From contig CALRNG020000001.1 of the NCBI GenBank assembly GCA_943369495.1, positions 200 to 64,199 on the forward strand: a DNA stretch of 64,000 nucleotides, read 5' to 3'. A model generated the notes under the pieces. It was not told where the DNA came from, searched no databases, and saw only the letters and a list, made by a program, of their open reading frames with translations. The stretch comes from Rhizobium sp. Q54. GTDB taxonomy: Bacteria > Pseudomonadota > Alphaproteobacteria > Azospirillales > Azospirillaceae. Position numbers and translations under genes: made by a program. Of this stretch, positions 2,388-48,170 are shown piece after piece (position 1 is the stretch's first letter; each line of letters begins with the position of its first letter).

Positions 2388-2405
2388 ATATAAAGAGCGA
2401 TGCGG

Positions 2406-33048: not shown

Positions 33049-33276
33049 TCACAAACCATTGCCGGCGACCGTGCCGTCCTTGCGCCGAGACAGCTGCACC
33101 TGGCCCTCCACGCATTTGACATAGGTGGTCTTGCCGAGCGCCAGATTGTCACAAATGGTGATCAAAGCGCGGGGCAGGGAGACGAACTCCTTCGACCCGC
33201 GCACCCCGGCATTGTAGGTGGCCAGATAGGTCTTCAGGGCGGGCTTGGTCACGGGCTGGCCGTTCTGGTCAATCAT
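33049..33276 (-). CDS. Small hypothetical protein (75 aa)
   Basis: Fills the gap upstream of the GT2 gene on the same strand; non-shadow amino-acid composition; no recognised motif. Confidence 0.45.
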   Translation of the reverse strand: MIDQNGQPVTKPALKTYLATYNAGVRGSKEFVSLPRALITICDNLALGKTTYVKCVEGQVQLSRRKDGTVAGNGL

Positions 33277-33357
33277 TGCGCGAAAGGCTCCGGGTGGATG
33301 GCGGGCCTGATCATGGAGCAGGGCGGGGGGGAAGGGCCAGCCCTGATTGGATGCGCA

Positions 33358-33386
33358 TTGACGTGTGTATCAACCATACACATAGT
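33358..33386 (+). promoter_or_regulatory. Putative ccdAB promoter/operator
   Basis: TTGACG-17 bp-CATAGT with inverted repeat TGTGTAT-N5-ATACACA in the spacer. Confidence 0.6.
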
Positions 33387-33413
33387 TCAAGGGCATCAAC
33401 CAGGAAGGCCAGC

Positions 33414-33653
33414 ATGACGCGAGAGACGGCGGGTGTGCGTCAGCGCACCAATGTGACCTTGCCAGAAGCGCTGCTGCGTGAGGCACGCCAACTCAACATC
33501 AACCTGTCGCAGGCCTGTGAGCGCGGCTTGTCTGCCGTCGTTCTGGAAATGAAGGCGGCGCAATGGCAGCAGGAAAATCAGGCGGCCATGGATGCCTGGA
33601 ACGCCCATGTCGAGGAAAAGGGGTTGCCGCTCGCCGAATACAGGCAGTTCTGA
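33414..33653 (+). CDS. ccdA: CcdA family antitoxin
   Basis: 'RQRTNVTL...ARQLNINLSQACE...WQQENQAAMDAWN..VEEKGLPLAEYRQF'. Confidence 0.9.
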   Translation: MTRETAGVRQRTNVTLPEALLREARQLNINLSQACERGLSAVVLEMKAAQWQQENQAAMDAWNAHVEEKGLPLAEYRQF

Positions 33654-33955
33654 TGGCGCGTTTCGATGTCCATGCCATGCCCGGGCAGCGGCCCGGTTAC
33701 CTTCTGGATGTGCAGGCCAACCTGCTGGACCGGCTGGATACAAGGGTTGTCGTCCCCCTGTTTCCAGAGAAGGAAGCACCACCGCCCATGATGGGCCTGA
33801 ACCCGGTATTCGATCTCCGGGGGCAACGCTATGTCATGTTCACCCAGTCCATCGCCACCCTGCGGCGGCGGGATCTGGGCAAGGCCGTTCTGTCGCTTGA
33901 TGACCAGCATCAGCGGATCACGAACGCCCTGGACATGCTGTTGACCGGATACTGA
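33653..33955 (+). CDS. ccdB: CcdB family toxin
   Basis: 'MARFDVH', 'YLLDVQANLL', 'TRVVVPL', 'ITNALDMLLTGY'; TGATG coupling with ccdA. Confidence 0.9.
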   Translation: MARFDVHAMPGQRPGYLLDVQANLLDRLDTRVVVPLFPEKEAPPPMMGLNPVFDLRGQRYVMFTQSIATLRRRDLGKAVLSLDDQHQRITNALDMLLTGY

Positions 33956-33965
33956 GGCAAGAACT

Positions 33966-33989
33966 GATATCAAAAAGCTATCTGATATC
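33966..33989 (+). repeat. 24-bp parS-like motif copy
   Basis: GATATC-AAAAA-GCTATC-T-GATATC inside inverted repeat GAACTGATATC...GATATCAGTTC (33961-33994). Confidence 0.6.
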
Positions 33990-35703
33990 AGTTCTGGACG
34001 ACCCGCCCCGCCGCCAGTTCCAGGACCCGGTCGGCGGCGCGGCGGGTCGCCTCGCGGTGGGTGACGGCCAGGATGGTCAGTTTGCCGCGCAGCCGGTCGA
34101 GCGTTTCCAGCACCAGTGCCTCCGACCCGCCATCCAGGGCCGAGGTGGCCTCATCCAGGATCAGCAGGCGGGGGCGGCGCAGCAAGGCACGGGCGATGGC
34201 GAGGCGTTGGCGTTCCCCACCGGAAACCGAATTGCCCCGGTCACCGACGATGGTATCCAGCCCCTGGGGCAGGGCGCGCACGAAGAGGGCGGCGCCGGCA
34301 TCCTCCAGCGCGGTCCAGAGGGCGGCCTCCGTCGCTTGCGGATCGGCCAGCAGCAGATTGGCCCGGATCGTGTCATGGAACAGGAACGGGTCCTGCGGCA
34401 CGACGGCCACCTGACGGCGCCAGGCGGACAGGCGCTCGGGGGTCAGGACATGTCCATCGACCGCTATCGTGCCGGCAGTCGGCAGCGTCAGTCCCGATAC
34501 CAGATCCGCGAGACTGGATTTACCCGCCCCCGATGGGCCGGTAACGGCCAGCAGGATGTTGCAGGGCAGGTCGAGGTCAATGCCCTCCAAGGCCAGGCGC
34601 CCATCGGGCATGCGCAGGCTGACGCCTTGCAGGGCAAGGTGGTGGGAAAAGGGGGGCAGGTCGGACCCGGCCGGTGGTTCCGCCCCGGCCCGCAGCCGGT
34701 CGCGCATCTGTTCATAAAGCCCCACGGCGGGCAGGGCGCTTTCCAGCTGCCGCCAGACCCGCATGCCGCCCAGTCCCCGCTGCGCCAGACGCGCGAAAGC
34801 CAGGATCACTACCAGGGCCTCGCTCAAAGGCTGGTCCAGCCACAGGGCTGCCGTCGCCACGGCCAGGGCCGCCAGCCCCGCTGCTGTCAGCATCAGGGCG
34901 GCCTGTTCATAGGCCATGATGCGGGCATGGCGGGCCTGGAGATGGCGCAGATCGGCAAAATGCTGGGACAGGACACCCTGTCGAACCTTCTCGGCCCCCA
35001 GCCCCTTGATGATGCGCAGGCCCGCCAGATCATCGCTCAGGTCGGCCATCATCGCCTGCTGCGCCCGGCCCAGGCGCACCCCGATATCAAAGCCGCTTTT
35101 CCCGATGCGCCGGATCAGCAGCAGCGCCAGCAGGGCGGCTGCCAGGGTGGCCAGGGTCAGAGGCGGTGACAGCAGCAGGGCCGCCAGCAGCAGGGTGGGC
35201 AGGGTCAGGGCCGCAATGCCGAGATTGACCAGCGCGTCATGGCACAGGCCCAGACGGTTCACCTCGATCGTCAGGATCTGCTTCACATCACTGGCGCGCA
35301 GCGTCTGGAATATCGGCCAGCAGACATGCAGCAGGGCCTTATGCAGGTCGCTGCGCAAGCCATCCACGAAGCGGTTGCGCTGGTCATTGCCGATGATGGA
35401 GCGCGCGGCGGTCACAGCGGCGGCGGCGGCGACCAGCAGCAGATAAAGCCCCAGCCCCCCCAGCAAGGGGCCGGCGGCCCGCGACCCGCCACCGCCCACC
35501 CCCACTACCTCCAGCACGGGCACCAGCAGCAGCAGCCCCGCCCCTTCGGCCAGCGTGGCGGCCAGCCCCAGGCCCAGCAGCAGTGCCCCCCGTCGCCGCC
35601 CATAGGAGGCGGCCAGCAGGGCCAGCAGGCGGCGGGCGGTGGCAGGGGCTGTCAGGGCGGGTGACGGCATGGGGGCCAGCAGGACGGTTGGGCGGGGGAT
35701 CAT
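33988..35703 (-). CDS. ABC exporter (fused TMD+NBD), putative lasso peptide transporter
   Basis: Hydrophobic N-terminal half; 'GPSGAGKS', 'VSGGERQR', 'ILDEATS'. No C39 domain; divergent from the lasso B2 gene. Confidence 0.88.
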   Translation of the reverse strand: MIPRPTVLLAPMPSPALTAPATARRLLALLAASYGRRRGALLLGLGLAATLAEGAGLLLLVPVLEVVGVGGGGSRAAGPLLGGLGLYLLLVAAAAAVTAARSIIGNDQRNRFVDGLRSDLHKALLHVCWPIFQTLRASDVKQILTIEVNRLGLCHDALVNLGIAALTLPTLLLAALLLSPPLTLATLAAALLALLLIRRIGKSGFDIGVRLGRAQQAMMADLSDDLAGLRIIKGLGAEKVRQGVLSQHFADLRHLQARHARIMAYEQAALMLTAAGLAALAVATAALWLDQPLSEALVVILAFARLAQRGLGGMRVWRQLESALPAVGLYEQMRDRLRAGAEPPAGSDLPPFSHHLALQGVSLRMPDGRLALEGIDLDLPCNILLAVTGPSGAGKSSLADLVSGLTLPTAGTIAVDGHVLTPERLSAWRRQVAVVPQDPFLFHDTIRANLLLADPQATEAALWTALEDAGAALFVRALPQGLDTIVGDRGNSVSGGERQRLAIARALLRRPRLLILDEATSALDGGSEALVLETLDRLRGKLTILAVTHREATRRAADRVLELAAGRVVQN

Positions 35704-35777: not shown

Positions 35778-36230
35778 ATGGTGCCCGTTGGAGCAGCAGG
35801 GACGGGGATCATGGTGGTCGGTCGGCTACGCAGACTGGAGGCGGCCTTGGCGCTGATACTGGCCTGGATGCTGGTCTTTCTGGTGCCGCTGCGCCTGCTG
35901 GGAACTGTGAACGCCCCTGGTGCCCGACCGGAGAGCCCTGACGATCCCCGCTTCCTGGCGCGGGCCCAGAGCGTGGCGCGGCGTGCCGACCGGGTCGCAG
36001 ACCGGCTGCCCTGGCGCAGTACCTGTCTGGTCCGGGCCGTGGCCGTCTGGCTGCTGTTGCGCCGGCGCGGCAGCCGGGGAGCGGCGATCCGGCTTGGCGT
36101 GCGCAGACAGGACGGTCTTCTGCAGGCCCATGCCTGGCTGCTGCTGCACGGCACCATCCTGACCGGCGGGGAGGAGGCGGATGGCTATGTGCCACTGGCT
36201 GACTTTTCGGTTGACCGGAAACAGTTCTAG
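35778..36230 (+). CDS. Lasso peptide leader peptidase B2 (transglutaminase-like)
   Basis: 'STCLVRAVA...IRLGV...AHAWL' Cys-His signature; alternative start 35811. Confidence 0.88.
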   Translation: MVPVGAAGTGIMVVGRLRRLEAALALILAWMLVFLVPLRLLGTVNAPGARPESPDDPRFLARAQSVARRADRVADRLPWRSTCLVRAVAVWLLLRRRGSRGAAIRLGVRRQDGLLQAHAWLLLHGTILTGGEEADGYVPLADFSVDRKQF

Positions 36231-36271: not shown

Positions 36272-36423
36272 CCAATCCGACAAAGGTCAAACCTTCGGCG
36301 GATTGGTATAATACCAGCGGCTTGAAATACTGACAGGTCAGCATTTCAAGCTTCGGCGGCATGGGCCGCCGCCGCGCCAGTCGGCGCGGATACTAACGGT
36401 CAAAATTTTTGACCGTTAGTATA
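36272..36423. repeat. Two adjacent hairpin-ended intergenic repeats
   Basis: CCAATCCG...CGGATTGGTAT hairpin, then ATACCAGCGGCTTGAAATACTGAC/GTCAGCATTTCAAGC ... ATACTAACGGTCAAAATTTTTGACCGTTAGTAT. Confidence 0.75.
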
Positions 36424-37083
36424 ATGATCTTCAGGCGCCGATCCCCGGGCGCGGTAATGGGCCAGCAGGTGAGGGCACAGGCTTTCCAGCGCTTCCTCCA
36501 GGCCGGGCGGGCGCTTCTGATCCCGGAACCGGTCGGTCAGGCCCTTGGTCCGGGCATTGCCGAAGACCACCTCCATCTCCTCCTGCAAGGCGGGTTCCGC
36601 CGCCCAGAGGCTGCCGAGCAACTCATCATAGGAGCGGCGGAACTGGAAATAATCCTCTGTGATGGGCCAGTCGAGGGCGGCCATGGTGGCCAGAATGGCG
36701 GGGTCGCGGGCCACCAGATCCTCGTAATGGATGACGGCGTCGAACCGGTCGCGCGCCAGGAACAGCCCTTCCAGAATCTGGAATTTCTCATGCATGAGGC
36801 CGCTGTAATGGCGGTAGGGCTTGGTGCGCAGGCTGGCGTAATTGTCGCGCGGGTCGCGCAGCAACAGCACGGTACGGTCGGGGCGGAACCGCTCCACATG
36901 CACCGCCAGGGGATAGGCCGTGGTGATCACGGCCTTGGCCACGAAATCCAGGGACGTCGTCACGCGCGGGGCTGCGAAATTGTTGGGAATATCGACCAGC
37001 GCCACGCAGCCTGGCCGTTGTGCCAGCACCTGGGTGAAGGCGGTGGCACCGCTGGACTGCATGCCATGGACCAGCAATCTCAT
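36400..37083 (-). CDS. Sulfotransferase-like P-loop protein
   Basis: 'HGMQSSGAT', 'LLRDPRDNYAS', 'IHYEDLV'; start overlaps the upstream stop. Confidence 0.7.
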   Translation of the reverse strand: MRLLVHGMQSSGATAFTQVLAQRPGCVALVDIPNNFAAPRVTTSLDFVAKAVITTAYPLAVHVERFRPDRTVLLLRDPRDNYASLRTKPYRHYSGLMHEKFQILEGLFLARDRFDAVIHYEDLVARDPAILATMAALDWPITEDYFQFRRSYDELLGSLWAAEPALQEEMEVVFGNARTKGLTDRFRDQKRPPGLEEALESLCPHLLAHYRARGSAPEDHYTNGQKF

Positions 37084-37874
37084 GTCGGCTCTCCGGCGCC
37101 GGTCAGCCAGTCCCTGTTGATCTCGGCGGTGATGAAGACATAGCGGCGGGTATGCGGCGTGGGCCAGCGCATCCCGACCCCGTGCAGGGCGTGGATGTTC
37201 TGCGGGAACAACACCAGCTGATTGGCGCGGTAGGGGATGCGCGCCACTTCCTCCACCGCCGTTTCCGGCAGCTGCTCGACAAAGGGTGAGGTGGCTACCA
37301 CCCCGTCCCGCCAGCGATAGAGGCACAGTTCGCCGCCCTGGCTGTCATCTTCCGGCGCGCGCAGGTAGAACAGGCCCGAGAACAGCCGGTTGGGCGTGTC
37401 CAGATGGGGACCCCGCGCGCGGGACGGTCCGTCCCGCACAGGCGTGTTGATTTCCAGCCTTGCATCCTGGCGGATCTCCAGCCCCGTGGCCGCAGGAGGC
37501 TGTGTCAGGTCGTACAGGCTGGTCGGATGGCCCGTCAGGCGACCGCCGAGCGCCGCCAGCATGGAAGGCTGCCAGTAGCCGTCGAACAGGGTCGCCACTT
37601 CCGCCAGGAAGTCCGGGCTGGTGTGGTAAGCCGCGAAGCGTTTCCAGCCGTCAGGCACGTCGTCCAGCATCGCCAGCATGCGGGCCGGCAGCACATAGCG
37701 GCGGTTGCCGCGCCCCCGGTCACTGGACAGGCCGGGGGCGATGCGACCGGGTGCCGGGAAGCCGGCGGCCAGTTCCGCATAGAACCTTGCCTCCAGTACA
37801 TCGGGAATGACGATATGGGGAAAGGGGTCGGTGCGGATATCAGCATGCGTCACATGGGCGAGCAGTGAACGCAT
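37080..37874 (-). CDS. 2OG-Fe(II) oxygenase
   Basis: 'DPFPHIVI', 'GPHLD' (HxD), 'GGEL', 'ALHGV', 'RRYVFI'. Confidence 0.82.
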   Translation of the reverse strand: MRSLLAHVTHADIRTDPFPHIVIPDVLEARFYAELAAGFPAPGRIAPGLSSDRGRGNRRYVLPARMLAMLDDVPDGWKRFAAYHTSPDFLAEVATLFDGYWQPSMLAALGGRLTGHPTSLYDLTQPPAATGLEIRQDARLEINTPVRDGPSRARGPHLDTPNRLFSGLFYLRAPEDDSQGGELCLYRWRDGVVATSPFVEQLPETAVEEVARIPYRANQLVLFPQNIHALHGVGMRWPTPHTRRYVFITAEINRDWLTGAGEPT

Positions 37875-37878
37875 GCGG

Positions 37879-39723
37879 TCATTCCCCCCGACCGGTTCCG
37901 GCCTTGCCCGCCGCCCATTCCCGCAGGGCCGCTTCCACTTCCGGTATGACATCGGACCAGTCGGCCCAACGCTTCTGCCGGAACAGGCGCATGCGTGGAT
38001 ACCAGGGGGTCGTGTCCCCCTTCTGCATCCAGCGCCAGCAGCCATCATAGCGCGACAACAGCAGCACGGGAATGTCGAGGCCGCCCGCCAGATGCGCCGT
38101 CGAGGTATCGACGCTGATCACCAGATCAAGGTGGCTGACCAGGGCAGCGGTATCGGCGAAATCCGACAGTTCCGCCGTCCAATCATGGATGGGGAAGGGC
38201 GGGTCGGCCATCTGGGCGGCACCGGCCCCTTTCTGCAGGCTGACGAAGCTGACGCCGGGAACGGTCCCCAGCGAGGCCAGTTTCTTCAGGGCGACGCTGC
38301 GTCGCCGGTCGATGGCGGCGGAAATGGGATCATGGGGGCGCGGATCGCCGGCCCAGACCAGTCCCACCTTCAGCCCCGGCAGGTCCGCCAGGCGCTGCCC
38401 CCAGACATCCTTGTCGGCGGGCGGGCAGGACAGATAGGGCGGGTCATAGAGGATGTTGTCGGGTCGCACCCCCAGCCGGTAGGGCAGCGACATCATGGAG
38501 ATGCCGCAATCCCATTCCGCCGGGTCCTCGTCCCTCGTCACCAGCCGGATGCGTGGATCGCTGAGGCCGAACAGCCGGACCAGGGGTTCGTTGGTGAGCA
38601 GACCTACCTGGGCCCCCCTGTCGGCCAGCAGGCGGACATAGCGGAAGAAATGCAGGCTGTCGCCCAGCCCCTGTTCGCTTTCCACCAGGATGCGGCGACC
38701 GGCCGGATCATCGCCGACCCAGGGGCGCAACTTGTCGATCTTGTACCATTGCAGGGTATAGTGGAAATGCTGGTCGCGCTTTTCATAGACGGCCCAGCCC
38801 CGTTCCCAATCACCCGACCGCAACAGATCACAGGCCAGCAGGAAGGCCGTGGTGACGGGATGATCCTCCCCCAGGGCCGCTTCCAGGGCCATGGTCTTCT
38901 CATAGAGCGGAAAGCTCTTGTCGAACCGGCCTTCAAAGGAATGGATGGTCGCCAGATTGGCCAGGCCGGGCACCATGTCAGGTTCCCGTTCCAGCCCCTT
39001 CTCCAGAGCCTCTACCGCCTCCACAAACCGCCCCTGCGAGCGCAGGACGGCGCCCAGGGTGCACCAGGCCGTTCCCAGTTCCGGCGCCAGTTCCGTGACG
39101 ACCCGCCGGGCCAGCGCCTCGGCCTCCTCAAACTCACCCACTGTTTCCAGGACCGACGCCAGATTGGTCATGGCGACGGGATCGTTGGGATAGAAGGCCA
39201 GTGATTGGCGCAGATTGGTGATGCCGCTGGCATAATCCCGCATGTTCGCCTGGATCAGGCCCAGGGCGCCCAGGACCTGCGGATAGGCGGCATTGATATG
39301 GGCCGCCTCCATGACATAGGGATAGGCGTCGGCATAGGCGAGGCGGGCGATCAGTCCCCGCGCCTCCTCCATCAGCAGATCCAGCAGCAGGCCGCCGGCG
39401 GAATGGGCGGGTACCTGTGCGACCACGGCCCGCAGCAGCCCTGCCGCCCGGCTCCTGTCGCCGGTATCGATCAGGGCGCGGGCCAGTTCGGCCATGGCGT
39501 TGACATGGTCTGGCCGCCGTTCGATCAACCGCTCCAGCACGGCCACCGCCTCGACCGACCGTTCCAGGTGACGCAGGGCGATGCCGTAAAGGAACAACCC
39601 ATCGTCACTACACTGACCTTCTGCATCCAGGGCCGCATACAGGGCGGCCACCCGGGGCTGGTCATCCTCACGGCAGGCCTGCTCGGCGGCCTGATGGCGG
39701 GCGGCGATATCCATGGGGGTCAT
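37879..39723 (-). CDS. TPR-repeat glycosyltransferase (GT9-like C-terminal domain)
   Basis: Many TPRs; 'EQGLGDSLHFFRY', 'VGLVWAG', 'DLVISVDTSTAHLAGGL', 'WRW', 'PWYPRMRLFRQ'. Confidence 0.9.
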   Translation of the reverse strand: MTPMDIAARHQAAEQACREDDQPRVAALYAALDAEGQCSDDGLFLYGIALRHLERSVEAVAVLERLIERRPDHVNAMAELARALIDTGDRSRAAGLLRAVVAQVPAHSAGGLLLDLLMEEARGLIARLAYADAYPYVMEAAHINAAYPQVLGALGLIQANMRDYASGITNLRQSLAFYPNDPVAMTNLASVLETVGEFEEAEALARRVVTELAPELGTAWCTLGAVLRSQGRFVEAVEALEKGLEREPDMVPGLANLATIHSFEGRFDKSFPLYEKTMALEAALGEDHPVTTAFLLACDLLRSGDWERGWAVYEKRDQHFHYTLQWYKIDKLRPWVGDDPAGRRILVESEQGLGDSLHFFRYVRLLADRGAQVGLLTNEPLVRLFGLSDPRIRLVTRDEDPAEWDCGISMMSLPYRLGVRPDNILYDPPYLSCPPADKDVWGQRLADLPGLKVGLVWAGDPRPHDPISAAIDRRRSVALKKLASLGTVPGVSFVSLQKGAGAAQMADPPFPIHDWTAELSDFADTAALVSHLDLVISVDTSTAHLAGGLDIPVLLLSRYDGCWRWMQKGDTTPWYPRMRLFRQKRWADWSDVIPEVEAALREWAAGKAGTGRGE

Positions 39724-40280
39724 TCAGGCTGTTCACGGGTGGCGCCGGGATGGCGCAGATGCAGGCGCGAGACGTCACGACCGGTTGCCACGAAGCCGAG
39801 GCGCGTGTAAAGGGCCAGGGCCCGGCCATTCAGGGGATCGACGGAAAGTGCCAGCCCCTTGCCGACCGCAGCTGCCTGCCGGATGAGATCGCCCAGCAGG
39901 GCGCTGCCGCTGCCCCGACCGCAGGCCGAGGGCAGGAACGCGATATCAACGACCCGCCAGTCGGGGCCGTCCATATCCAGATAAAGCCGACCGACAGGAT
40001 CGGTGCCGCGCAGCAGCAGCCGCCGGGCCGCGTCCGGGTAGCGGCGGCTCCAGTCCTGGCACTGGGCGTCGAACTGCTGGTCACAGAACCAGCGGCACAT
40101 GGCCTCGTCCCAGCCGGTGGCGGCCAGTTCGGCGGCGCGGGTGCTGCGGTAGAGCCGGCGCAGAAAAGGCAGATCGGCGTCCCGTTCGGGACGGACCCGC
40201 AGCCCGGGCGGACGAAGGGCAGGCCCCCTTGCGGTTGCCTGCCCTCCTTCCTTCCGGTCCATTGCGGACGATGGCGTCAT
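39720..40280 (-). CDS. GNAT family N-acetyltransferase
   Basis: 'FLRRLYRSTR', 'QQFDAQ', 'VDIAFLP..CGRGSG', 'LYTRLGF'. Confidence 0.88.
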   Translation of the reverse strand: MTPSSAMDRKEGGQATARGPALRPPGLRVRPERDADLPFLRRLYRSTRAAELAATGWDEAMCRWFCDQQFDAQCQDWSRRYPDAARRLLLRGTDPVGRLYLDMDGPDWRVVDIAFLPSACGRGSGSALLGDLIRQAAAVGKGLALSVDPLNGRALALYTRLGFVATGRDVSRLHLRHPGATREQPE

Positions 40281-40283
40281 GCG

Positions 40284-40844
40284 TCAGTTCCGGGATGGCC
40301 ACGTCCCATCAAAGCAGATGCAATAGCGCATGACCAGCATCGGGGAGCGGTTTTCATGCGCCGTATTGCCGCCAGCCACCGACAGTGCGCTCGGCGCCAT
40401 CGTACTCAGGGTCGGGCTCAGCGTCGAATTGATATACATGCCCAGCCCGTAGGCGCGGGTGCCCGGCGGCCGATACTGTGGGTTGGAAGGAACAGCGGTC
40501 GAACCGGGAGCCGTCACGCGCACCACGGAGAGCTGCGATACCATGCTGTGGTCATGGGACGGGATCTGAGCGATGTTCAGGGTCACTATGGCCTGACCCA
40601 GGGTCGCGGCCACCGGGTAGGGACCACCGGCGGCGGTGCTCGTGCCCGAATAGCCCAGAACCACCCGCCCGTTCAGGTTGGGAACGGCGAAGGTGGTCTT
40701 ACCGTCGCCGCCATATGTGATGCCAAGGATGGCGGCCAGCGCCTGATACTGTTGGATGGAGTGGAGAGACCCATCGCATGTCAGCCAGCCGGCGGGCGTG
40801 AACATATACGGGAAGGCCCGGATTTCACCAATGAACGCGTCCAT
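40284..40844 (-). CDS. Phage tail-collar domain protein (microcystin-dependent-protein-like), paralog 3
   Basis: 'FIGEIRAF', 'GWLTCDG', 'TFAVPNLNGR', 'IPSHDH', 'HENRSP...YCI'. Confidence 0.9.
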   Translation of the reverse strand: MDAFIGEIRAFPYMFTPAGWLTCDGSLHSIQQYQALAAILGITYGGDGKTTFAVPNLNGRVVLGYSGTSTAAGGPYPVAATLGQAIVTLNIAQIPSHDHSMVSQLSVVRVTAPGSTAVPSNPQYRPPGTRAYGLGMYINSTLSPTLSTMAPSALSVAGGNTAHENRSPMLVMRYCICFDGTWPSRN

Positions 40845-40860
40845 TTATGCCTCCCTTTGC

Positions 40861-41394
40861 TCACGCCGCCGGATATAAGCCGTTCAGCGCGATGATGTAA
40901 CGCATGGCCATGGACGGCATCATGTTCATATGCGCCTGTCCGCCGCCGTTCGGCAGGATGACCCCCGCCGCCATGGTCACCGAGACGTTGGTGGCGTTGG
41001 CGGGAGTGTAGAGGTTGAAGCTGTCGCTGGGATCGGCCAGGACGGCATTGATGGGGGACGTGCTGGTGGCCGCGTTGGTCGTCGCCATCTCCGGATGGCT
41101 ATGCAGCGGCAGCTGCGCCTCGGTCAGGGTGACGGCGGTGACGCCACCGGCCTGGCCCAGTTTATAGGGGGAAATACCGGTCCCGCCGCTGGTGCCATAG
41201 CCGATGGGCAGGCGGCCCCGCAGGTCCGGTACCGCGAAGGTCGTTGAGCCGTCCCCGCCATAGACGGTACCCAGCAACGCGAACAGCTCCTGATGGGAGG
41301 CAATATTCAGGATGCTTCCGTCACATTCCTGCCAGTCGGCAGGAACATAAGTGCCGGCGAACAGTCGGATTTCGCCAATATAATAATCGCTCAT
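40861..41394 (-). CDS. Phage tail-collar domain protein, paralog 2
   Basis: 'YIGEIRLFAG', 'WQECDG', 'TFAVPDLRGR', 'LPLHSH', 'HMNMMP...YII'. Confidence 0.9.
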   Translation of the reverse strand: MSDYYIGEIRLFAGTYVPADWQECDGSILNIASHQELFALLGTVYGGDGSTTFAVPDLRGRLPIGYGTSGGTGISPYKLGQAGGVTAVTLTEAQLPLHSHPEMATTNAATSTSPINAVLADPSDSFNLYTPANATNVSVTMAAGVILPNGGGQAHMNMMPSMAMRYIIALNGLYPAA

Positions 41395-41417
41395 GACATG
41401 TCTCCCTTGCCAGGCGG

Positions 41418-41981
41418 TCAGTTGCGGGCCGGATAAATGCCGTTAGTGGCGATGCAATAGCTGAGGGCCAGGAACGGCTGCCGGTTCTCATGCCCGCCAC
41501 TGCCGCCGGCATTGCCGACGATCGACGTGCTCAGCGTCGTCATGGGCGACGCCGCGGGGCCATATAGGGCCGGCGGTGCTGGCTGCGGTGCCGGTACCTG
41601 CGACGGGATGGACGTGATGGCGAAATAACTGTTGGCCGGGTTCGCCGATGCATTGGCTGTGAGGGCCTGCTGATTGGCGGCGACAACCGTGTGGGTATGG
41701 GCCGGCATCTGGGCAACCGACAGGGTCACCGTTTCGGCGCCCGCCGTGTTGCCGACAGTGGGCGGCATGCCCAAGGCGCTGCCATTCATGCCGGCGATGG
41801 CCCGGCCATTGAGGTTCGGCAGATTGAAATTTGTGCCGTTGCCTCCGAACTGGATCCCCAGCAGGGAGTACAGGGCCGTATTCTGCTGGATCACCAGCGA
41901 CTGACCATTGCAGGCCACCCATCCATGGGGGATGTTCTGGTACGGGAAAAGACGGATTTCACCAATGAAATAGTCGGACAC
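41418..41981 (-). CDS. Phage tail-collar domain protein, paralog 1
   Basis: GTG start; 'FIGEIRLF', 'GWVACNG', 'FNLPNLNGR', 'MPAHTH', 'HENRQP...YCI'. Confidence 0.9.
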   Translation of the reverse strand: MSDYFIGEIRLFPYQNIPHGWVACNGQSLVIQQNTALYSLLGIQFGGNGTNFNLPNLNGRAIAGMNGSALGMPPTVGNTAGAETVTLSVAQMPAHTHTVVAANQQALTANASANPANSYFAITSIPSQVPAPQPAPPALYGPAASPMTTLSTSIVGNAGGSGGHENRQPFLALSYCIATNGIYPARN

Positions 41982-42386
41982 GGTTGCCTCCCTATTAGGC
42001 ATAGCCTGACAACCAACCTTGCGACGAACAGGGTTGTTCCGTACAAGGAAGATTGTTGCCAGGAAGTCATATATCCACCCCTGGATGCAAGCGGTATGAA
42101 GATTTAAGGTTGTTTTTCCTGGAAGGGACATAATACAATAATCATTACATGATCGCTGACCGTCCGTTCATAAACGGTATATGAACAACCATATATCTGG
42201 CCGCTCTGCCGGCTCCCGATGCCCCTGCGGCCCTGTCTCCCCGAGTCTGGTATGGCTGAACCGGAAGGGACGCCACCCTTGTCAGGGACGGGTGTATCCT
42301 TTATGATCGCAATCAGTAGAAGAGTGGCTGGGGTCTGCTTCTTCACCCTGCCCCCGCTGTCGTGCAGACACGTACAGGATATGGAT

Positions 42387-42548
42387 ATGAACGCTCCCAA
42401 GACGGTCGGAACCTCCGATCATGCCGCCGGCCAGGATGCGGATCGTCTTCCCTGGACGGCACCCGTCCTGGGCGTCTATGATGCCGCCCGCCTGACGCTG
42501 GGTACCAGCGACCAGACAAATGATAGCGGTCTGAACACCCATTCCTGA
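42387..42548 (+). CDS. Lasso peptide precursor (53 aa; predicted core GTSDQTNDSGLNTHS)
   Basis: Leader 'WTAPVL' ([Y/W]xxPxL), Thr at -2, core Gly1 and Asp8; 12 bp upstream of the cyclase; AGGA RBS. Alternative ATG at 42381. Confidence 0.88.
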   Translation: MNAPKTVGTSDHAAGQDADRLPWTAPVLGVYDAARLTLGTSDQTNDSGLNTHS

Positions 42549-42560: not shown

Positions 42561-44459
42561 ATGTTTCTGGCAGCAACGGGCCCAGTGACGCGTGGTCTCA
42601 GCCACCATGTTCCATCCGGCCTGAGAGCTGTTGGCCTTCACCAAGATGCCGACTGCGGCATCGTCGGTTTTGACCATGAGCCCTCGTCCCCCGGACGAGG
42701 GCGCCCTCAGCCGCGTTCCCTTCCTCGCAGCCCCTCCGGGGCGGTAACCCTGATCAGCGGGGCGCTCTACAATCTTCCCGATCTGGCGTCCGCCCTGGGG
42801 ATGGACCCGTCTTCGGCTCCCGCATTGCTGGTCGATGCCGTCATCGACCGTTGGGGGACGGAGGGACTTGCCCGCCTCAATGGCGATTACGCCCTGGTCC
42901 GCTGGTCGCCGCATAACCGCTCGCTGCTGCTGGCGGCCTGCCCCATGGGTTGGAACAGCCTTTATCATGCGGCCACGCCCGACGGTATCCTGGTGGCCAG
43001 CCGCCCCAGCTGGCTGCTGGCCTTTCCCGAAGTCGATGCCGAACCGGACATCGATACGCTGGCCCTGCGGTTGGCCAAGATGGAGAACCGGGTCGGCGAC
43101 CGCACCCCCTGGCGCCATATAAGGCGCCTGCAGCCGGGTCAGTATCTGGAATGGCGGGACGGGTCCACGCGCATCGCCCCCTTCTGGTCACCGGTGCCGC
43201 GCCGCACCCTGCGCTTGCCCCGCGATGGGGATTATGTGGAGGCCGCGCGCGAGCATCTGGACCGCGCCGTCGCCGCCCGCTGTCCCACGGGGACGCCCAT
43301 CCTGTGCCTGCTGTCGGCGGGGCTGGATTCCCCCGGCATCGTTGCCACGGCGGCCCAATGCCACGACGCGCCCATCCATACGCTGACGGTCCGCGCCGAC
43401 CCAACGGCTCCCCTGCTGGAACCCGGTGCCTGGCACTTCGGGGATGAATGGGAACGCCTGCAGCCCTTCCGGGACCGCTACCCATCCCTGACGGCGCATG
43501 TGGCCGATGCCTGGCAGCCCGATCTGGCCATGGAATTTCCAGGCGGGATGTTGCAAAGCCGTGACTGGCCCTTCAAGAGCCCGTATCAGATCGCCTGGGC
43601 CACGCTTCCCTTGGAACGGGCGGTCCGCGAGCAGGGCATCCAGGTTGTCATAAGCGGTGATGCGGGTAATGTCACGCTGAGCTATACGGGCAGCCATGTG
43701 GCCGCCGACCAGATGCTGGCGGGGCGCTGGTTGCCGGCCTGGCGCAACCTCATTCCCTATCGGGATGATTGGACCGGACGTCCCCGTGCGCTCTGGAACC
43801 AGGGATTGCTTCCCTTGCTATCTCCCGCCATACGCCGGCAGGTGCGCCGTCTGCGTGGCAAGACTGATTACTGGTGGCAGGAATGGAGCAGCATCCAGCC
43901 AGAGGTGGCGCAACGCCTGCAACTGGACGACCATGACCGGCCTGGGATCCGGACGGGTTCCCCTGACCTGGACAGGCATATCCATATCCTTGACCGCCAC
44001 CGTCATAACACCGCCCAATATGCCCATTTCCTGCAAGGGCAGAGCTGGTCCTGGCGCGACCCCTATACCGACCTGGCCCTGGTGGAATTCTGCCTGTCGC
44101 TGCCGCGCGATCAGTTCCGCCGGGACGGGGTCAACCGCCTGCTGGCCCGCCGGACCCTGGCCGACCGCGTGCCGGACACGATCCTGAATGAACGCCGTAT
44201 CGGGCTGCAACATGCCGACTGGTATGGCTGGATGAGCCGGCGGCGCGGCTGGATGGCGGCCGAGATCGACCGGATCGAACGCTCGCCCCTGGCCTGTTCC
44301 ATCCTGGACACGCGCCATATGCGCGCCATCCTGGACGCCTGGCCCGCCACGCCGGCAGACGCCGGGCGCTTCCCCACCTCCCACCGGCTGCGCAAGGGGC
44401 TGGGTGAGGCCTTGCGGGTGGGGCAGTTCATCTTGATGCAGGAAGGCCGCAATGAGTGA
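42561..44459 (+). CDS. Lasso peptide cyclase (asparagine synthetase-like, C protein)
   Basis: 'LNGDYALVRW', ATP motif 'LSAGLDS', 'SGDAG', 'DPYTDLALVEFCLSLP'; lacks the N-terminal Cys of true AsnB. Confidence 0.88.
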   Translation: MFLAATGPVTRGLSHHVPSGLRAVGLHQDADCGIVGFDHEPSSPGRGRPQPRSLPRSPSGAVTLISGALYNLPDLASALGMDPSSAPALLVDAVIDRWGTEGLARLNGDYALVRWSPHNRSLLLAACPMGWNSLYHAATPDGILVASRPSWLLAFPEVDAEPDIDTLALRLAKMENRVGDRTPWRHIRRLQPGQYLEWRDGSTRIAPFWSPVPRRTLRLPRDGDYVEAAREHLDRAVAARCPTGTPILCLLSAGLDSPGIVATAAQCHDAPIHTLTVRADPTAPLLEPGAWHFGDEWERLQPFRDRYPSLTAHVADAWQPDLAMEFPGGMLQSRDWPFKSPYQIAWATLPLERAVREQGIQVVISGDAGNVTLSYTGSHVAADQMLAGRWLPAWRNLIPYRDDWTGRPRALWNQGLLPLLSPAIRRQVRRLRGKTDYWWQEWSSIQPEVAQRLQLDDHDRPGIRTGSPDLDRHIHILDRHRHNTAQYAHFLQGQSWSWRDPYTDLALVEFCLSLPRDQFRRDGVNRLLARRTLADRVPDTILNERRIGLQHADWYGWMSRRRGWMAAEIDRIERSPLACSILDTRHMRAILDAWPATPADAGRFPTSHRLRKGLGEALRVGQFILMQEGRNE

Positions 44460-45417
44460 GCCCGATCTGCCGCTGATGCCGGTAACGGCCGCACCCTCGG
44501 CGGAGGGGGGGCGCTTCCTGCTGCGCCCCGTGGGGCCGGCGGATTTCCTATTCGGCCTGCATAATCGTCCGCCGGGCGCCAATCACCCCCCCCTCTTGCT
44601 GCAAGAGGTTGCCATCCGCGCCCATGTGCCGGTGGGCCCCATCCTGCCGCCGATCCTGTCCATCTGGCACCTGACGCGCTGCGGTTCCACCCTGACGGCC
44701 CGCATGCTGTCCTGCATCGAGGCGTTGCAGGTGACGGACGAGCCGGGGGCGCTGGTCGATATCTGCGGTGCCTTCTGGGGCCTGGTGCCGGCCGCCGACC
44801 GGCTGCCGGCGCTGGATATGACCCTGCGGTCGCTGGGGCAGCGGCTGCGGCCGGGGGCGCGCCATCTGGTGGTGAAACAATCGCTGCGCAGCGGGCAGGA
44901 ACTGGACCTGTTCACGCGGCTGCATCCCGACATGCACCGGCTGCTGATCATCCGCGATCCCCTGGAAATCCTGGTGTCGAACCTGCGCAAGCCGCCCGGC
45001 TGGCTGAAATTGCGTAACGTGGTCTGGTCGCCGCTGCTGTCGGGCGTGGGGATGGCTACGCAGCGCGGCCTCAGCGACGCGGAATTCATCGCCCGCTGCC
45101 TGGGCCGCGCCTTCACCGCCATGGCCCGGATGGTGGAAAAGGACCCCGCTGCCTGGCTGATCCTGGATTACACGGAGCTGCCGGGGGCCGTGACGACCCG
45201 GTTGCTGCCGCGCCTGGGCATCACGCCCGGCCCGGACGAACGGGCAGCCATGGAGGAGGCCACGCGTTTGGAGGCCTGGAACCGCAAGGGCCGCCAGCCC
45301 TTTCAGGACGACCGCGCTGACAAGCAGGCCGCCGCCACCCCGGAAATGCACGCCCTGTGCGACCGGTTCCTGCGGGAACCCTGGCAGCGGCTGGCGCTGT
45401 TGCGGCAGCCGTCATGA
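44452..45417 (+). CDS. Sulfotransferase-like protein
   Basis: 'WHLTRCGSTL', 'IIRDPLEILVS', 'LDYTELP', 'FQDDRADKQ'; overlaps the cyclase stop. Confidence 0.7.
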   Translation: MSEPDLPLMPVTAAPSAEGGRFLLRPVGPADFLFGLHNRPPGANHPPLLLQEVAIRAHVPVGPILPPILSIWHLTRCGSTLTARMLSCIEALQVTDEPGALVDICGAFWGLVPAADRLPALDMTLRSLGQRLRPGARHLVVKQSLRSGQELDLFTRLHPDMHRLLIIRDPLEILVSNLRKPPGWLKLRNVVWSPLLSGVGMATQRGLSDAEFIARCLGRAFTAMARMVEKDPAAWLILDYTELPGAVTTRLLPRLGITPGPDERAAMEEATRLEAWNRKGRQPFQDDRADKQAAATPEMHALCDRFLREPWQRLALLRQPS

Positions 45418-46320
45418 AGGATGGCCGGTGACCAGGGCCTCCACGGCGGTGGCCAGGGCCGGCAGGTCGGCCAGATCATCGGTCCGTTCCAGCCGGAAGA
45501 CAGGCGTGGCGCGTGCCAGCGTCACCGCCCAGTCCAGGGCGGTACGGCCCTGGTCCAGCGCACGGCTGAATTCGGGCCGGTAGAGACAGCGCAGCAGCAG
45601 GGCGGCCGCCGCGTGCGGATCGGCCCGTTCCAGGTGCTGTTCCATCCCCCGTGACAGGACCAGCACCAGGCCCAAGGGCATGGGGGCGGGATGGAACCGG
45701 TCCGGCATCGGGATGATGTATTTCTCCAGCCCGTCGCGCACGCGCCGACCAGGGTCCACCGCGTCGCCGGCCAGCGCCGCGGTCCCTGCCCATAGTTTCA
45801 TGGCCGGAAAGCCGGGATGCACTGCCCGTGTGCCGGGGTCGATCACGGCCTGATCATCGCTGACCAGCTCATGGCCCCGCGCGATCAGGGTACGGGCCAG
45901 GGTCGATTTGCCCGCCCCGCTGTCACCGGCCAGGGCCACGGCCATCGGACCTATCGCCACCACGCAGGCATGCATCGGTGGCCGCCCGCGCTGGCACATC
46001 AGCCAGCCGAGCGGCGGCCCGCAGAGCAGGGCATGCAGTTCGGCATCACTGATCTCCGGCGGCAGGTCCGCCGTGATTTCCCGACCCTCCCGGATCAGGA
46101 AACGCGCCCCCCGCACAGCCTGATGCAGGCCGGTGCCATCGGCATAGATAGACAGGCGCCGTGCCTGACGGGTTGGGCTTCCCGCCGGAACCGCCACCGG
46201 GGCGAAGCGCAGCACAACATCCACGGGACGCGCCGGATCGGGTTCCGGCCACTGGAAAGGCAAGGGGCACGGGCTGGACAGGGTCAGCCCGTAAATCCGG
46301 TACCGGTGCTCGCCGGTCAT
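45412..46320 (-). CDS. HPr-kinase-like kinase (lasso peptide kinase type)
   Basis: 'YRIYGL', 'MHAC', Walker A 'GDSGAGKST', 'VSDD', 'PGFPAMKLW'. Confidence 0.88.
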   Translation of the reverse strand: MTGEHRYRIYGLTLSSPCPLPFQWPEPDPARPVDVVLRFAPVAVPAGSPTRQARRLSIYADGTGLHQAVRGARFLIREGREITADLPPEISDAELHALLCGPPLGWLMCQRGRPPMHACVVAIGPMAVALAGDSGAGKSTLARTLIARGHELVSDDQAVIDPGTRAVHPGFPAMKLWAGTAALAGDAVDPGRRVRDGLEKYIIPMPDRFHPAPMPLGLVLVLSRGMEQHLERADPHAAAALLLRCLYRPEFSRALDQGRTALDWAVTLARATPVFRLERTDDLADLPALATAVEALVTGHPS

Positions 46321-46432
46321 CTCGCCTCTTTCCACCCCGGTCAGGCCACCCTTGAGCCATGACATTTACAGCGCCGCTCTGGCTCTGCCATAAATGCCGG
46401 TCTGTTGCCATGGTGAAAAGCAGGCCGCCTTC

Positions 46433-46717
46433 ATGAGCTTCCTCCCCGATACGATCTTCATCCGCGCGTCCGGTCCGCTGACCACCGAGGTGGATGGCGA
46501 ACTGGTGATGCTGGATGTCGAGAGCGGCAGCTATTTCAACCTGGACCGTATCGGTACCGCCATCTGGGGGCTGCTGGCAAATCCCGTGCATTTCGAGGAT
46601 CTGTGCCAGGACCTGCACGCCCGCTATGACGCGCCGCTGGAGACGATCCGTGCGGATGTCGCGGCCCTCTTGTCCCGGATGCTGGAGCATAAGCTGGTGA
46701 GGACGGAGATGCCGTGA
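46433..46717 (+). CDS. PqqD-family RiPP recognition element (lasso B1)
   Basis: 'EVDGELVMLDVESGSYFNLDRIGTAIWGLL...LHARYD...DVAALL'. Confidence 0.92.
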   Translation: MSFLPDTIFIRASGPLTTEVDGELVMLDVESGSYFNLDRIGTAIWGLLANPVHFEDLCQDLHARYDAPLETIRADVAALLSRMLEHKLVRTEMP

Positions 46718-47649
46718 CCGATGCCGCTTCCCCGGATATGGCTGCCCTTGCCCGGCAGGCGGCCTTCCTGCTGCTCCAGGGTCAGGCCGCTCAGGCAGCC
46801 GGGCTGTGCGAGCGCATACGGGACATTGATCCCAATCTGGAGCGGTTCGGCGCCTTTATCGATCTGCTGACCTGGGCTCGACCGCGCGAGCGGCTCTATC
46901 CTCTCATTCGTGATCTGGTGGATGCGGGTTTCGCCAATCCCCGCAGTTTCGATCTGCTGGCCGCCGCCGCCATCTGGGCCGGCGACAGCAAGGCCGCCCG
47001 GGTCCTGACCGATCCCGACCGTTTCCTGTCCATCCTCCCCCTGCACGGGCCCGATGATCCCGATCTGGCGCTGCTGACCCGTGAACTGGGCAGCGGGCTG
47101 GACCATTACGACCGGCCCGGCGACCGGTCCATACGCATGGGATGGCGGCGTAACCATCTGGAGACGGCGGACAGTCCTGTGCTGCGCCGTATGTTCGACC
47201 GGTTATGGCGGGCAGCATTGGATTATGTCGGGCGGCTGCCAGTCGATCCGGACAACCCGTTTCTGCGCTCCAGGCCCGCCGGCCTCAGCCTGCGGGCCTG
47301 GAGTGTGGTGTCGGGCGCCGATACCCATCATCTTTCCCATCTGCATGCCACCAGCTGGGTCAACGGCGTCTATTATGTGGCTGTGCCGCCCGTGACAGGC
47401 GACGAGGTGGGCAAGCCTGGCTGGCTGCGTGTCGGGCCGGCGGCGGGCCGGGGTTTCAATGCCGGCAATGGCTGGGACGAGCGCTGGGTCCGCCCGGAGC
47501 CCGGCCTCGTCGTCCTGATGCCAAGCCATTTCAGCCATGAGACCGTGCCCCTGGGCTGTGACGGGCCGCGGATATGTGTGGCCTTTGAACTATACGCCGC
47601 ACCGGTGGAAACGGCTGATCAGCGGCTGCCGCCGGCCAGCAGTCGATAG
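46714..47649 (+). CDS. Putative 2OG-Fe(II) oxygenase with helical N-terminus
   Basis: 'HLSHLH..SWVNGVYYV', 'PEPGLVVLMPSHFSHETVP', 'RICVAF'; GTGA coupling with B1. Confidence 0.78.
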   Translation: MTDAASPDMAALARQAAFLLLQGQAAQAAGLCERIRDIDPNLERFGAFIDLLTWARPRERLYPLIRDLVDAGFANPRSFDLLAAAAIWAGDSKAARVLTDPDRFLSILPLHGPDDPDLALLTRELGSGLDHYDRPGDRSIRMGWRRNHLETADSPVLRRMFDRLWRAALDYVGRLPVDPDNPFLRSRPAGLSLRAWSVVSGADTHHLSHLHATSWVNGVYYVAVPPVTGDEVGKPGWLRVGPAAGRGFNAGNGWDERWVRPEPGLVVLMPSHFSHETVPLGCDGPRICVAFELYAAPVETADQRLPPASSR

Positions 47650-48170
47650 ACCGAAGCCCGCCCGATGCCCAGATATCGGGCGATGGCGGCCCCCCCCATG
47701 CCCTCGGCCTTCAGCCGCCGCACGGCCTCGGCATCGATGCGCGGTTTGCGGCCTTTATAGACGCCTCTAGCCTTGGCGGCCTTGATCCCCTCCATCTGGC
47801 GTTCCCGGCGCAGGTTCGTCTCGAACTCCGCAAAGACGCCCAGCATGTCGAGGAAGGCCTTGCCGGCGGCGGTGCTGGTATCGATGGGCTGTTCGGTGGC
47901 GCGCAGGTCCACACCCTTGGCCCGCAGCTCCGCCACGATATCCTGAAGGTCCTTGATGGACCGCGCCAGCCGGTCGATGCGGGTGACCAGCAACGTGTCG
48001 CCCGGGCGCAGGAATTCCAGCAGCAGGGCCAGCTCCGTGCGGCCCTTGCGGCTGGACCCGCTGGCCTTCTCGGCACGCACGACCGCACAGCCGGCCCGGG
48101 TCAGCGTCTCCACCTGGATTGTCACATCCTGGTCGGTGGTGGAGGCGCGGGCATATCCGTACAAAGCCAT
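47619..48170 (-). CDS. Serine resolvase/invertase
   Basis: 'YGYARAST', 'EKASG', 'TRIDRLARS', C-terminal HTH 'IARYLGIGRASVYR'. Confidence 0.95.
   Translation of the reverse strand: MALYGYARASTTDQDVTIQVETLTRAGCAVVRAEKASGSSRKGRTELALLLEFLRPGDTLLVTRIDRLARSIKDLQDIVAELRAKGVDLRATEQPIDTSTAAGKAFLDMLGVFAEFETNLRRERQMEGIKAAKARGVYKGRKPRIDAEAVRRLKAEGMGGAAIARYLGIGRASVYRLLAGGSR

What the first reader, a model, noticed from the sequence alone, without database searches (positions are those of the whole stretch)
39720..41981. Three diverged tail-collar paralogs plus GNAT, with no phage genes and no signal peptides
Seen: three 177-187 aa paralogs, each with an N-terminal collar motif, a central HxH (HTH, HSH, HDH) and a C-terminal H.N..P motif. 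No capsid, tail or lysis genes are in the window. Known: HxH motifs bind metal at the three-fold axis of trimeric T4 tail-fibre tips. Inference: a domesticated, possibly heterotrimeric, metal-stabilised adhesive tip whose partner could be the giant RTX protein, with the GNAT acting in maturation.
Basis: partly seen in the sequence, partly recalled or inferred. Interest (0 to 1): 0.7.

Follow-up and report, generated by a model that had tools for sequence, protein, structure and literature searches.

The report
Three-chain phage-tip knob, swappable partners
Three neighbouring plasmid genes encode copies of a phage tail-fibre tip that are predicted to lock into one three-chain, likely metal-held binding knob, and related cassettes sit beside either a lasso-peptide pathway (as here) or a giant surface protein, which suggests a phage part reused by the cell for a job nobody has yet tested.

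Summary
Three Collar-domain (PF07484) paralogs of 187, 177 and 186 aa each carry one HxH and one H.N..P, followed by a GNAT, on a plasmid-like contig without phage genes. They open a seven-gene block (36400-41981). The family spans many phyla, mostly as triplets. A 1:1:1 model scores 0.89 against a best control of 0.27, but likeness to solved T4 trimers may explain this and homotrimers were not tested. The RTX partner is not supported: its N-terminal region was not found in 9 of 9 other cassette genomes. Instead the cassette lies inside a phospho-lasso-type cluster. In the window's family, 39 of 42 lasso-B2 genomes carry the cassette, 31 within 10 kb. Across 80 loci the neighbour is a lasso cluster (32) or a giant Thr-rich protein (22), never both, and a GNAT (43) or a formyltransferase (13), never both. 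The nearest relative keeps the block at 87% DNA identity but has a giant protein instead of lasso genes. Best reading: a domesticated fibre-tip binding head for an exported product; export route, ligand and acyl substrate are unknown. This scan found the cassette before on other DNA (four notes).

The parts
41418..41981 (-). Collar paralog 1, 187 aa (GTG start); Collar 7-62, HTH 95-97, HENRQP 164, ends GIYPARN
40861..41394 (-). Collar paralog 2, 177 aa; Collar 7-63, HSH 98-100, HMNMMP 155, ends GLYPAA
40284..40844 (-). Collar paralog 3, 186 aa; Collar 6-62, HDH 97-99, HENRSP 163, ends GTWPSRN
39720..40280 (-). GNAT acetyltransferase of a cassette-specific subfamily; the glycine-rich acetyl-CoA motif looks intact (motif recalled)
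   Evidence: (PF00583, 34 bits)
37879..39723 (-). TPR protein with a C-terminal glycosyltransferase-9-like part (weak RfaQ hit only, E 0.008); overlaps the GNAT stop by 4 nt
37080..37874 (-). 2OG-Fe(II) oxygenase, same predicted operon
36400..37083 (-). 227-aa protein with a sulfotransferase-like N-terminal motif (recalled motif; no Pfam hit); last gene of the block shared with L004
41982..42117 (-). Upstream stretch conserved in L004 and L005; probable promoter region of the collar operon (inferred)
42387..42548 (+). Predicted lasso precursor, 53 aa: leader with Thr at -2, 15-aa core starting Gly1 with Asp8 and a C-terminal Ser; divergent from the collar operon
42561..44459 (+). Asparagine-synthetase-like lasso cyclase (below the NCBIfam cut-off of the named lasso cyclase model)
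44452..45417 (+). Sulfotransferase-like protein (weak PF13469, E 0.002)
45412..46365 (-). HPr-kinase-related kinase
46394..46717 (+). PqqD/B1 leader-binding protein
46714..47649 (+). Putative 2OG-Fe(II) oxygenase (PF13759)
35778..36230 (+). Lasso B2 leader peptidase (NF033537, 76 bits, cut-off 33)
33988..35703 (-). ABC exporter of the lasso-cluster type

Best explanation
The three Collar proteins are shaft-less copies of a T4-type fibre tip that are predicted to fold together into one 1:1:1 knob, likely held by one metal ion through their three HxH motifs, and that likely serve as a binding head for a product the cell exports. Shown: fold family, tandem triplets, conserved base and variable head, and a neighbouring N-acyltransferase in most loci. 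Inferred: the conserved base (N-terminal GEIR and C-terminal G-x-Y/F-P) docks on a partner; three different chains let a three-fold knob meet an asymmetric single-chain partner; the variable middle binds a surface glycan or protein; and the GNAT (a formyltransferase in Bacteroidota) N-acylates the subunits or the partner in the cytoplasm. On this replicon the partner is most likely the product of the surrounding phospho-lasso-type pathway; in other genomes it is most likely a giant Ig-repeat surface protein. How the knob leaves the cell is unknown (lysis or piggy-back export).
For: Fold: best structural match T4 gp12 1OCY, Z 10.0, rmsd 2.2 A over 73 residues, then A-1(L) fibre 8KEC and T4 gp37 2XGF. 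Three as the unit: 81 of 94 tandem groups have three genes, with arrays of 2, 4 and 6 triplets; the best outside match keeps the same position for 195 of 234 proteins; position labels need 32 tree changes against 111 shuffled. Complex model with Zn: ipSAE 0.89, best of 3 controls 0.27, runs agree in at least 98% of contacts, partner pLDDT at least 92; this mark was reached by 116 of 157 solved complexes and 2 of 215 mismatched pairs, and may come from likeness to solved trimers. Precedent: three DSLV2 Collar proteins co-purify as a ~55 kDa complex (PMC12724248, section 20). Mean identity to 48 homologs is 54-58% in the collar, 45-53% in the return strand and 18-25% in the head. GNAT in 43 and formyltransferase in 13 of 80 loci, never together. 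Lasso cluster in 32 and giant Thr-rich protein in 22 of 80 loci, never together; at least 3 context switches are forced on the GNAT tree. In 130 genomes of the window's family, lasso B2 is in 39 of 49 cassette genomes and 3 of 81 others; within genus g3, 19 of 21 against 1 of 48. L004 keeps the block at 87% identity with a 3152-aa DUF4347 protein in place of the lasso genes and has no B2 match in its genome.
Against: No export signal exists on any subunit, and the giant neighbours use unrelated routes (SLH/Sec, T9SS, autotransporter, DUF4347), none of which obviously carries a folded trimer. The usual accessory proteins (GNAT, formyltransferase, a PBP-fold protein that starts directly at its domain) look cytoplasmic. 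Three is not obligatory: an even Bacteroidia sample gave 13 triplets, 5 pairs and 7 singles, so homotrimers must work in some lineages. The three positions are not three clean clades (18-21 changes each). No homotrimer control was run. A 15-aa peptide is an odd scaffold for a ~57 kDa knob. 26 of 80 loci have neither neighbour in the DNA held (many are cut by contig ends), and 0 of 20 Bacteroidia loci have lasso genes. The gene-neighbour counts include close kin and could partly reflect one shuffled mobile island.
Confidence: 0.45

Rival explanations
1. The trimer stays in the cytoplasm and acts with the acyltransferase and the signal-less PBP-fold protein as a sensor, chaperone or maturation scaffold for the neighbouring exported product.
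For: No export signals; the PBP-fold neighbour begins at its domain and is in 17 of 20 Bacteroidia loci; one cassette serves neighbours with unrelated export routes; the operon is often divergent from the partner gene.
Against: The fold is a receptor-binding tip in the solved relatives; the head is the most variable part; arrays of 4-6 diverged triplets fit a binding repertoire better than a housekeeping role.
Confidence: 0.22
2. The trimer is a tip supplied in trans to a contractile injection system (eCIS) or tailocin encoded elsewhere in the genome and released by lysis.
For: In 201 Bacteroidia genomes a tail sheath is in 17 of 23 genomes with a full-length cassette gene and 13 of 178 without; most of the 20 sheath loci fetched are eCIS-like operons. 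G000 has one sheath gene on contig C220. It would solve the export problem.
Against: In the window's family the eCIS cap Pvc16_N is in only 14 of 49 cassette genomes (7 of 81 others), and within genus g3 in 3 of 21 against 4 of 48. G000 (71% complete) gave no Baseplate_J, portal, terminase or Pvc16_N match and no tube or baseplate hit. The genome of L004 has no Pvc16_N match. The proteins leave no room for the N-terminal anchors described for eCIS fibres (PMC12923769, passages). Shared environmental lifestyle may explain the Bacteroidia overlap; I did not control for it.
Confidence: 0.12
3. The knob is a free decoy or competitor that occupies phage receptors or poisons phage fibre assembly (defence).
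For: Phage-tip fold, variable head, plasmid location beside toxin-antitoxin genes.
Against: No PADLOC match for the Collar proteins or the GNAT; the recurring neighbours are surface proteins and peptide-modifying enzymes, not defence genes.
Confidence: 0.08
4. The partner is the 2643-aa RTX-repeat protein at 6831-14762.
For: Same contig; giant surface proteins are real neighbours of the cassette elsewhere.
Against: 25 kb away; N-terminal 568 aa not found in 9 of 9 other cassette genomes including the two nearest relatives, with G000 as positive control; only weak single-module hits in 3 fetched loci.
Confidence: 0.07
5. A prophage remnant or hitch-hiker without a role in its neighbours' function.
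For: Free-standing ~180-aa Collar tail proteins exist in Microbacterium phages; the region is mobile.
Against: Intact triplets with the same acyltransferase partners across many phyla; only 7 loci in the viral collection, most of them cellular-type cassettes; shuffled gene order with kept linkage.
Confidence: 0.04

Closest known systems
Tripartite tail proteins of virophage DSLV2 (PMC12724248; passages and section 20 read)
   Same: Three consecutive Collar (PF07484) genes of gp37-tip size, position-specific lineages, 1:1:1 complex shown by co-purification; binds Synechococcus cells.
   Different: Virion part beside the minor capsid protein; the passages read mention no acyltransferase, lasso cluster or giant surface protein. 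Sequence relationship to the window's proteins was not tested.
T4 short tail fibre gp12 receptor-binding domain (PDB 1OCY), T4 gp37 tip (2XGF), cyanophage A-1(L) fibre (8KEC)
   Same: Collar fold with the C-terminal strand returning to the collar (Z 8-10); HxH, which binds iron in gp37 (PMC11705849, passages; zinc in gp12 is recalled).
   Different: Homotrimers (recalled for gp12; stated for gp37 in PMC12724248) at the end of a long shaft on a virion; here no shaft, three different chains, one HxH per chain and an added conserved G-x-Y/F-P tail (225 of 237).
COG4675 'microcystin-dependent protein' (MdpB) / RhiB annotation family
   Same: Cellular Collar proteins of unknown function; RhiB is filed under COG4675 (PMC6969944, passages); COG4675 proteins were detected in soil metaproteomes (PMC5579227, passages).
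   Different: An annotation label, not a mechanism. That the window's proteins fall in COG4675 is recalled, not tested; RhiB lies in rhiABC, not in a triplet with an acyltransferase.
Kinase-containing lasso clusters (paeninodin, SyanK, pseudomycoidin; review PMC8498205, passages)
   Same: Precursor with C-terminal Ser, cyclase, split B1/B2, HPr-like kinase, ABC exporter, sulfotransferase-like and nucleotidyltransferase genes.
   Different: No Collar cassette is mentioned in the passages read, and searches pairing the terms found none; gene order here is scattered on both sides of the collar operon.
eCIS tail fibres (PMC12923769, passages)
   Same: Collar and needle domains occur at the end of eBAP1 fibres; genome-level overlap in Bacteroidia.
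   Different: eCIS fibres carry an N-terminal baseplate anchor and lie next to baseplate genes; these proteins have neither.

Membership tests
Collar domain proteins (PF07484) | Pfam score above gathering cut-off | tested here: met
   75-90 bits against 24
T4 gp12/gp37-type fibre tip | Collar fold with returning C-terminal strand | tested here: met
   Predicted model of paralog 2 (mean pLDDT 75.7) aligns to 1OCY at Z 10.0, rmsd 2.2 A, 73 residues; head region low confidence and not matched
T4 gp12/gp37-type fibre tip | Intertwined trimer | tested here: inconclusive
   Model supports a heterotrimer (0.89 against 0.27) but may pass by likeness to solved trimers; no homotrimer control
T4 gp12/gp37-type fibre tip | Metal bound by six His of three HxH motifs | not testable with these tools
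   HxH present in 234 of 234; Zn was included in the model but is not scored or reported
Phage tail fibre (virion part) | N-terminal shaft or anchor, and head/tail genes nearby | tested here: not met
   Collar starts at residue 6-7; no phage family among 51 ORFs scanned; only these three Collar hits in G000
eCIS tail fibre | N-terminal eBAP anchor and position downstream of baseplate genes | tested here: not met
   No room for an anchor; no baseplate gene in the window or matched in G000 (genome 71% complete)
DSLV2-type tripartite tail proteins | Three consecutive Collar genes with position-specific lineages | tested here: met
   (positions clustered, not three clean clades)
DSLV2-type tripartite tail proteins | Virophage genome, beside minor capsid protein | tested here: not met
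   Plasmid-like bacterial contig with RepA_C, ParA, CcdAB, resolvase
DSLV2-type tripartite tail proteins | Binding to bacterial surface or LPS | not testable with these tools
   needs a binding assay
GNAT acetyltransferase | PF00583 above cut-off | tested here: met
   34 bits against 20.7; substrate unknown; RimI model far below its cut-off
Kinase-containing lasso cluster (neighbour) | Precursor with Thr(-2), Gly1, Asp/Glu at 7-9, C-terminal Ser; B1, B2, cyclase, kinase | tested here: met
   B2 passes NF033537; cyclase and B1 score below the cut-offs of the named lasso models
Kinase-containing lasso cluster (neighbour) | Threaded, phosphorylated product | not testable with these tools
   needs expression and mass spectrometry
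Known anti-phage systems (PADLOC 2.0) | Match to a system protein model | tested here: inconclusive
   No match for 6 of 7 proteins; only a generic 2OG model for the oxygenase; the library dates from 2023

The most novel reading that the evidence does not exclude
A widespread cellular system in which a heterotrimeric, phage-derived fibre tip is N-acylated and mounted on interchangeable cargo, either a phospho-modified lasso peptide or a giant Ig-repeat surface protein, giving bacteria a swappable targeting head. It would give kinase-type lasso peptides a structural or delivery role, with tandem arrays of triplets acting as a repertoire of specificities.
Probability: 0.2. Interest if true: 0.88.

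Novelty: new variant of a known kind. Interest (0 to 1): 0.62.

Why it matters
These genes are annotated 'tail fiber protein' in records with no phage around them and occur in 49 of 130 genomes of the window's family. No paper describing the bacterial cassette turned up in ten searches. Its either-or partners give direct tests: what a phage tip does for a cell, what kinase-type lasso peptides are for (their function is open in the review passages read), and whether acetyl and formyl groups do the same job. A shaft-less, self-assembling 57 kDa binding knob with a variable head would also be a compact scaffold for binding studies.

Tried and rejected
RTX partner: rejected as above. DUF6916 and the PBP-fold neighbour, common elsewhere, were not found in G000, nor DUF4347 (no control rang; genome 71% complete). 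Rfam: no match in the window at gathering scores. Promoter scan: 4 consensus sites, none convincingly upstream of paralog 1. Expression: RNA-labelled runs held only 5-8% of the words, were contigs of relatives, and one contig spanned both divergent operons, so transcription is not shown. Idea that formyltransferase loci always keep the initiator Met: tendency only (second residue D/E in 26 of 33 against 45 of 141 in GNAT loci), with MST- starts in several formyltransferase loci; dropped. Giant proteins further from lasso-linked triplets: 2 of 13 lasso-linked family loci had a Thr-rich ORF over 800 aa, 11 of them read with one or two extra 20-kb flanks. Maximum-likelihood tree timed out; FastTree used instead. 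The protein atlas did not answer. The original T4 gp37 structure paper was not held. Paper searches: tail collar + GNAT 0; tail collar + microcystin-dependent 1 (a Brucella phage, listing only); five-term search 535, none relevant among 30 listed; 'microcystin-dependent protein' 4; 'microcystin dependent' 0; tail collar + lasso peptide 0; tail collar domain + autotransporter 1 (listing only); HxH search 38; lasso five-term 1; contractile injection five-term 188. PMC8213781 has no 'collar' in its main text. No supplements were read; the Pfam enrichment tables of the two eCIS papers could bear on the eCIS rival.


Full report
Observation. Paralog 1 starts at a GTG behind GGGAGG. Each paralog has one Collar domain from residue 6 or 7, one HxH and one H.N..P. 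These are the only three Collar matches in the genome G000, which is 71% complete. The contig looks like a plasmid: RepA_C, ParA, CcdAB, AbiEii and a resolvase among many glycosyl- and methyltransferases. No phage family was hit among the 51 ORFs scanned.

The unit. Gaps of 23, 16, 3 and -4 nt link the paralogs, the GNAT and a TPR protein, followed by a 2OG oxygenase and a sulfotransferase-like gene down to 36400. The nearest relative L004 shares 36441-42117 as one 5.7-kb block at 87% identity. The seven-gene block lies inside a lasso-type cluster: precursor, cyclase, kinase and B1 on one side, B2 and an ABC exporter on the other. The precursor ends in Ser, the residue phosphorylated in kinase-type lasso pathways (PMC8498205, passages).

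Family. A scan of GTDB genomes with patterns from the three paralogs found 130 relatives and returned 79 loci from Pseudomonadota, Bacteroidota, Bacillota, Chloroflexota, Verrucomicrobiota, Spirochaetota, Campylobacterota and others. With the window, 81 of 94 tandem groups have three genes, and some loci hold 2, 4 or 6 triplets. This sample leans towards the query. An even sample of 201 Bacteroidia genomes gave 13 triplets, 5 pairs and 7 singles in 23 genomes (counted by hand; 20 of these 25 places fetched), so three is the commonest number but not a rule. In 78 clean triplets the best outside match keeps the same position for 195 of 234 proteins; on the tree the positions cluster (32 changes against 111 shuffled) but do not form three clades. 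The viral collection gave 7 loci, mostly cellular-type cassettes. Isolated Microbacterium phages carry a free-standing relative as a minor tail protein, single in the one record opened.

Structure. A model of paralog 2 (mean pLDDT 75.7) matches T4 gp12 (Z 10.0, rmsd 2.2 A, 73 residues), the A-1(L) fibre and the T4 gp37 tip; profile search gives the same relatives. The three chains with Zn score ipSAE 0.89 against a best control of 0.27, with at least 98% of contacts shared between runs and partner pLDDT at least 92; the mark was reached by 116 of 157 solved complexes and 2 of 215 mismatched pairs. The pass may come from likeness to solved trimers, and no homotrimer was run. Three virophage DSLV2 Collar proteins co-purify as one complex (PMC12724248), and HxH binds iron in gp37 (PMC11705849). 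The metal site here is inferred. Conservation is high in the collar and return strand and low in the head. A short N-terminus and a C-terminal G-x-Y/F/W-P (225 of 237) mark a conserved base where a phage fibre would continue into its shaft.

Neighbours. Of 80 loci, 43 have the GNAT and 13 a two-domain formyltransferase, none both (one search counted 42 after dropping L030). In the 20 Bacteroidia loci, 14 have the formyltransferase, 1 the GNAT, 17 a PBP-fold protein without a leader, 13 a Thr-rich protein of 500 aa or more and none lasso genes. An unrelated enzyme doing the same chemistry suggests that N-acylation is the required step (inference). Of the 80 loci, 32 have at least two lasso core genes, 22 a Thr-rich protein of 1000 aa or more, none both and 26 neither. 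The 13 giants scanned with Pfam mostly carry Ig-like, cadherin or TIG repeats with SLH, T9SS, autotransporter or DUF4347 parts. On a tree of 50 GNATs (loci with neither context or no GNAT left out) the context changes 7 times, at least 3 forced by well-supported branches. The reverse test in the 130 genomes of the window's family: lasso B2 is in 39 of 49 cassette genomes and 3 of 81 others, within 10 kb of a Collar gene in 31 of the 42 B2 genomes, and within genus g3 in 19 of 21 against 1 of 48. Kin are not independent, so these are counts, not a test. L004 is a natural swap: same block, a divergent 3152-aa DUF4347 protein, and no B2 match in its genome.

RTX. Its N-terminal 568 aa were not found in 9 other cassette genomes, with G000 as positive control, so it is unlikely to be the conserved partner.

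Injection systems. G000 has one sheath gene, between phoB and a CBS-domain gene on C220 (names read from the sequence), but no matched baseplate, tube, portal, terminase or cap. In Bacteroidia a sheath occurs in 17 of 23 cassette genomes and 13 of 178 others, mostly in eCIS-like operons. In the window's family the link is weak (Pvc16_N in 14 of 49 against 7 of 81) and absent within genus g3 (3 of 21 against 4 of 48). I keep it as a rival.

Mechanism. I commit to a cytoplasmically assembled, N-acylated, metal-centred 1:1:1 knob whose conserved base docks on an exported product and whose variable head binds a surface ligand (0.45). The heterotrimer alone I put near 0.75. The weak points are export and the mismatch in size between a 15-aa peptide and a 57 kDa knob; a cytoplasmic role is the main rival.

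Novelty. The fold and a heterotrimeric version are known from viruses, and the proteins are a known annotation family. Ten paper searches found no description of the bacterial cassette or of its link to lasso clusters; the library lacks most subscription journals and no supplements were read. This scan noted the cassette four times before, once inside a lasso cluster.

Noticed in passing
window 1580-4212, 29352-30281, 33276-33955, 47619-48170: ParA, AbiEii-type pair, RepA_C, CcdA/CcdB and a resolvase: the 74-kb contig looks like a plasmid loaded with glycosyltransferases, FkbM and other methyltransferases.
   Followed up: partly
G000:C220:4089-5666: Lone tail-sheath gene (525 aa, 53% to a sheath in L167) with no tube or baseplate genes matched in the assembly.
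   Followed up: partly
L152-L171: In Bacteroidia, genomes with the Collar cassette usually also hold an eCIS-like operon elsewhere (17 of 23 against 13 of 178); not corrected for phylogeny or habitat.
   Followed up: partly
L028:3699-14917, L038, L142: Tandem arrays of 6, 4 and 3 diverged triplets, suggesting a repertoire of heads.
   Followed up: no
L010:41-610, L020:8120-8779: A fourth, collar-only gene with a twin-arginine-like leader (motif recalled) precedes the triplet in some Bacteroidota loci; a possible piggy-back export route.
   Followed up: no
L124-L140, L046:7282-8550: A ~380-aa Peripla_BP_6-fold protein without a leader sits next to the Collar genes in 17 of 20 Bacteroidia loci.
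   Followed up: partly
window 6831-14762: 2643-aa RTX-repeat protein with four internal repeats of about 500 aa and no informative Pfam match outside the RTX tail; no type I secretion genes seen in the window.
   Followed up: partly
window 48363-49481: 372-aa Ala/Gln/Thr-rich protein with a hydrophobic leader and no Pfam or NCBIfam hit; a relative lies in L058, another lasso-linked locus.
   Followed up: no
window 27-1127: NTP_transf_5 nucleotidyltransferase of the kind found inside related lasso clusters, here about 33 kb from the cluster.
   Followed up: partly
L005 (G130:C27): The 64.7-kb contig breaks inside paralog 3 and has a B2 match near its other end, consistent with a circular plasmid; there the epimerase found at window 5646 lies beside the resolvase.
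   Followed up: no
L045:12070-12398, L051:12128-12661: Three or four tandem lasso-type precursors between the formyltransferase and the cyclase.
   Followed up: no
L072:9684-10841: One 385-aa frame holds two whole Collar units, a possible fusion of subunits 1 and 2 or a lost stop codon.
   Followed up: no
L149:3923-4471: Small Microbacterium phages encode a single free-standing 182-aa Collar minor tail protein about 38% identical to paralog 2.
   Followed up: partly
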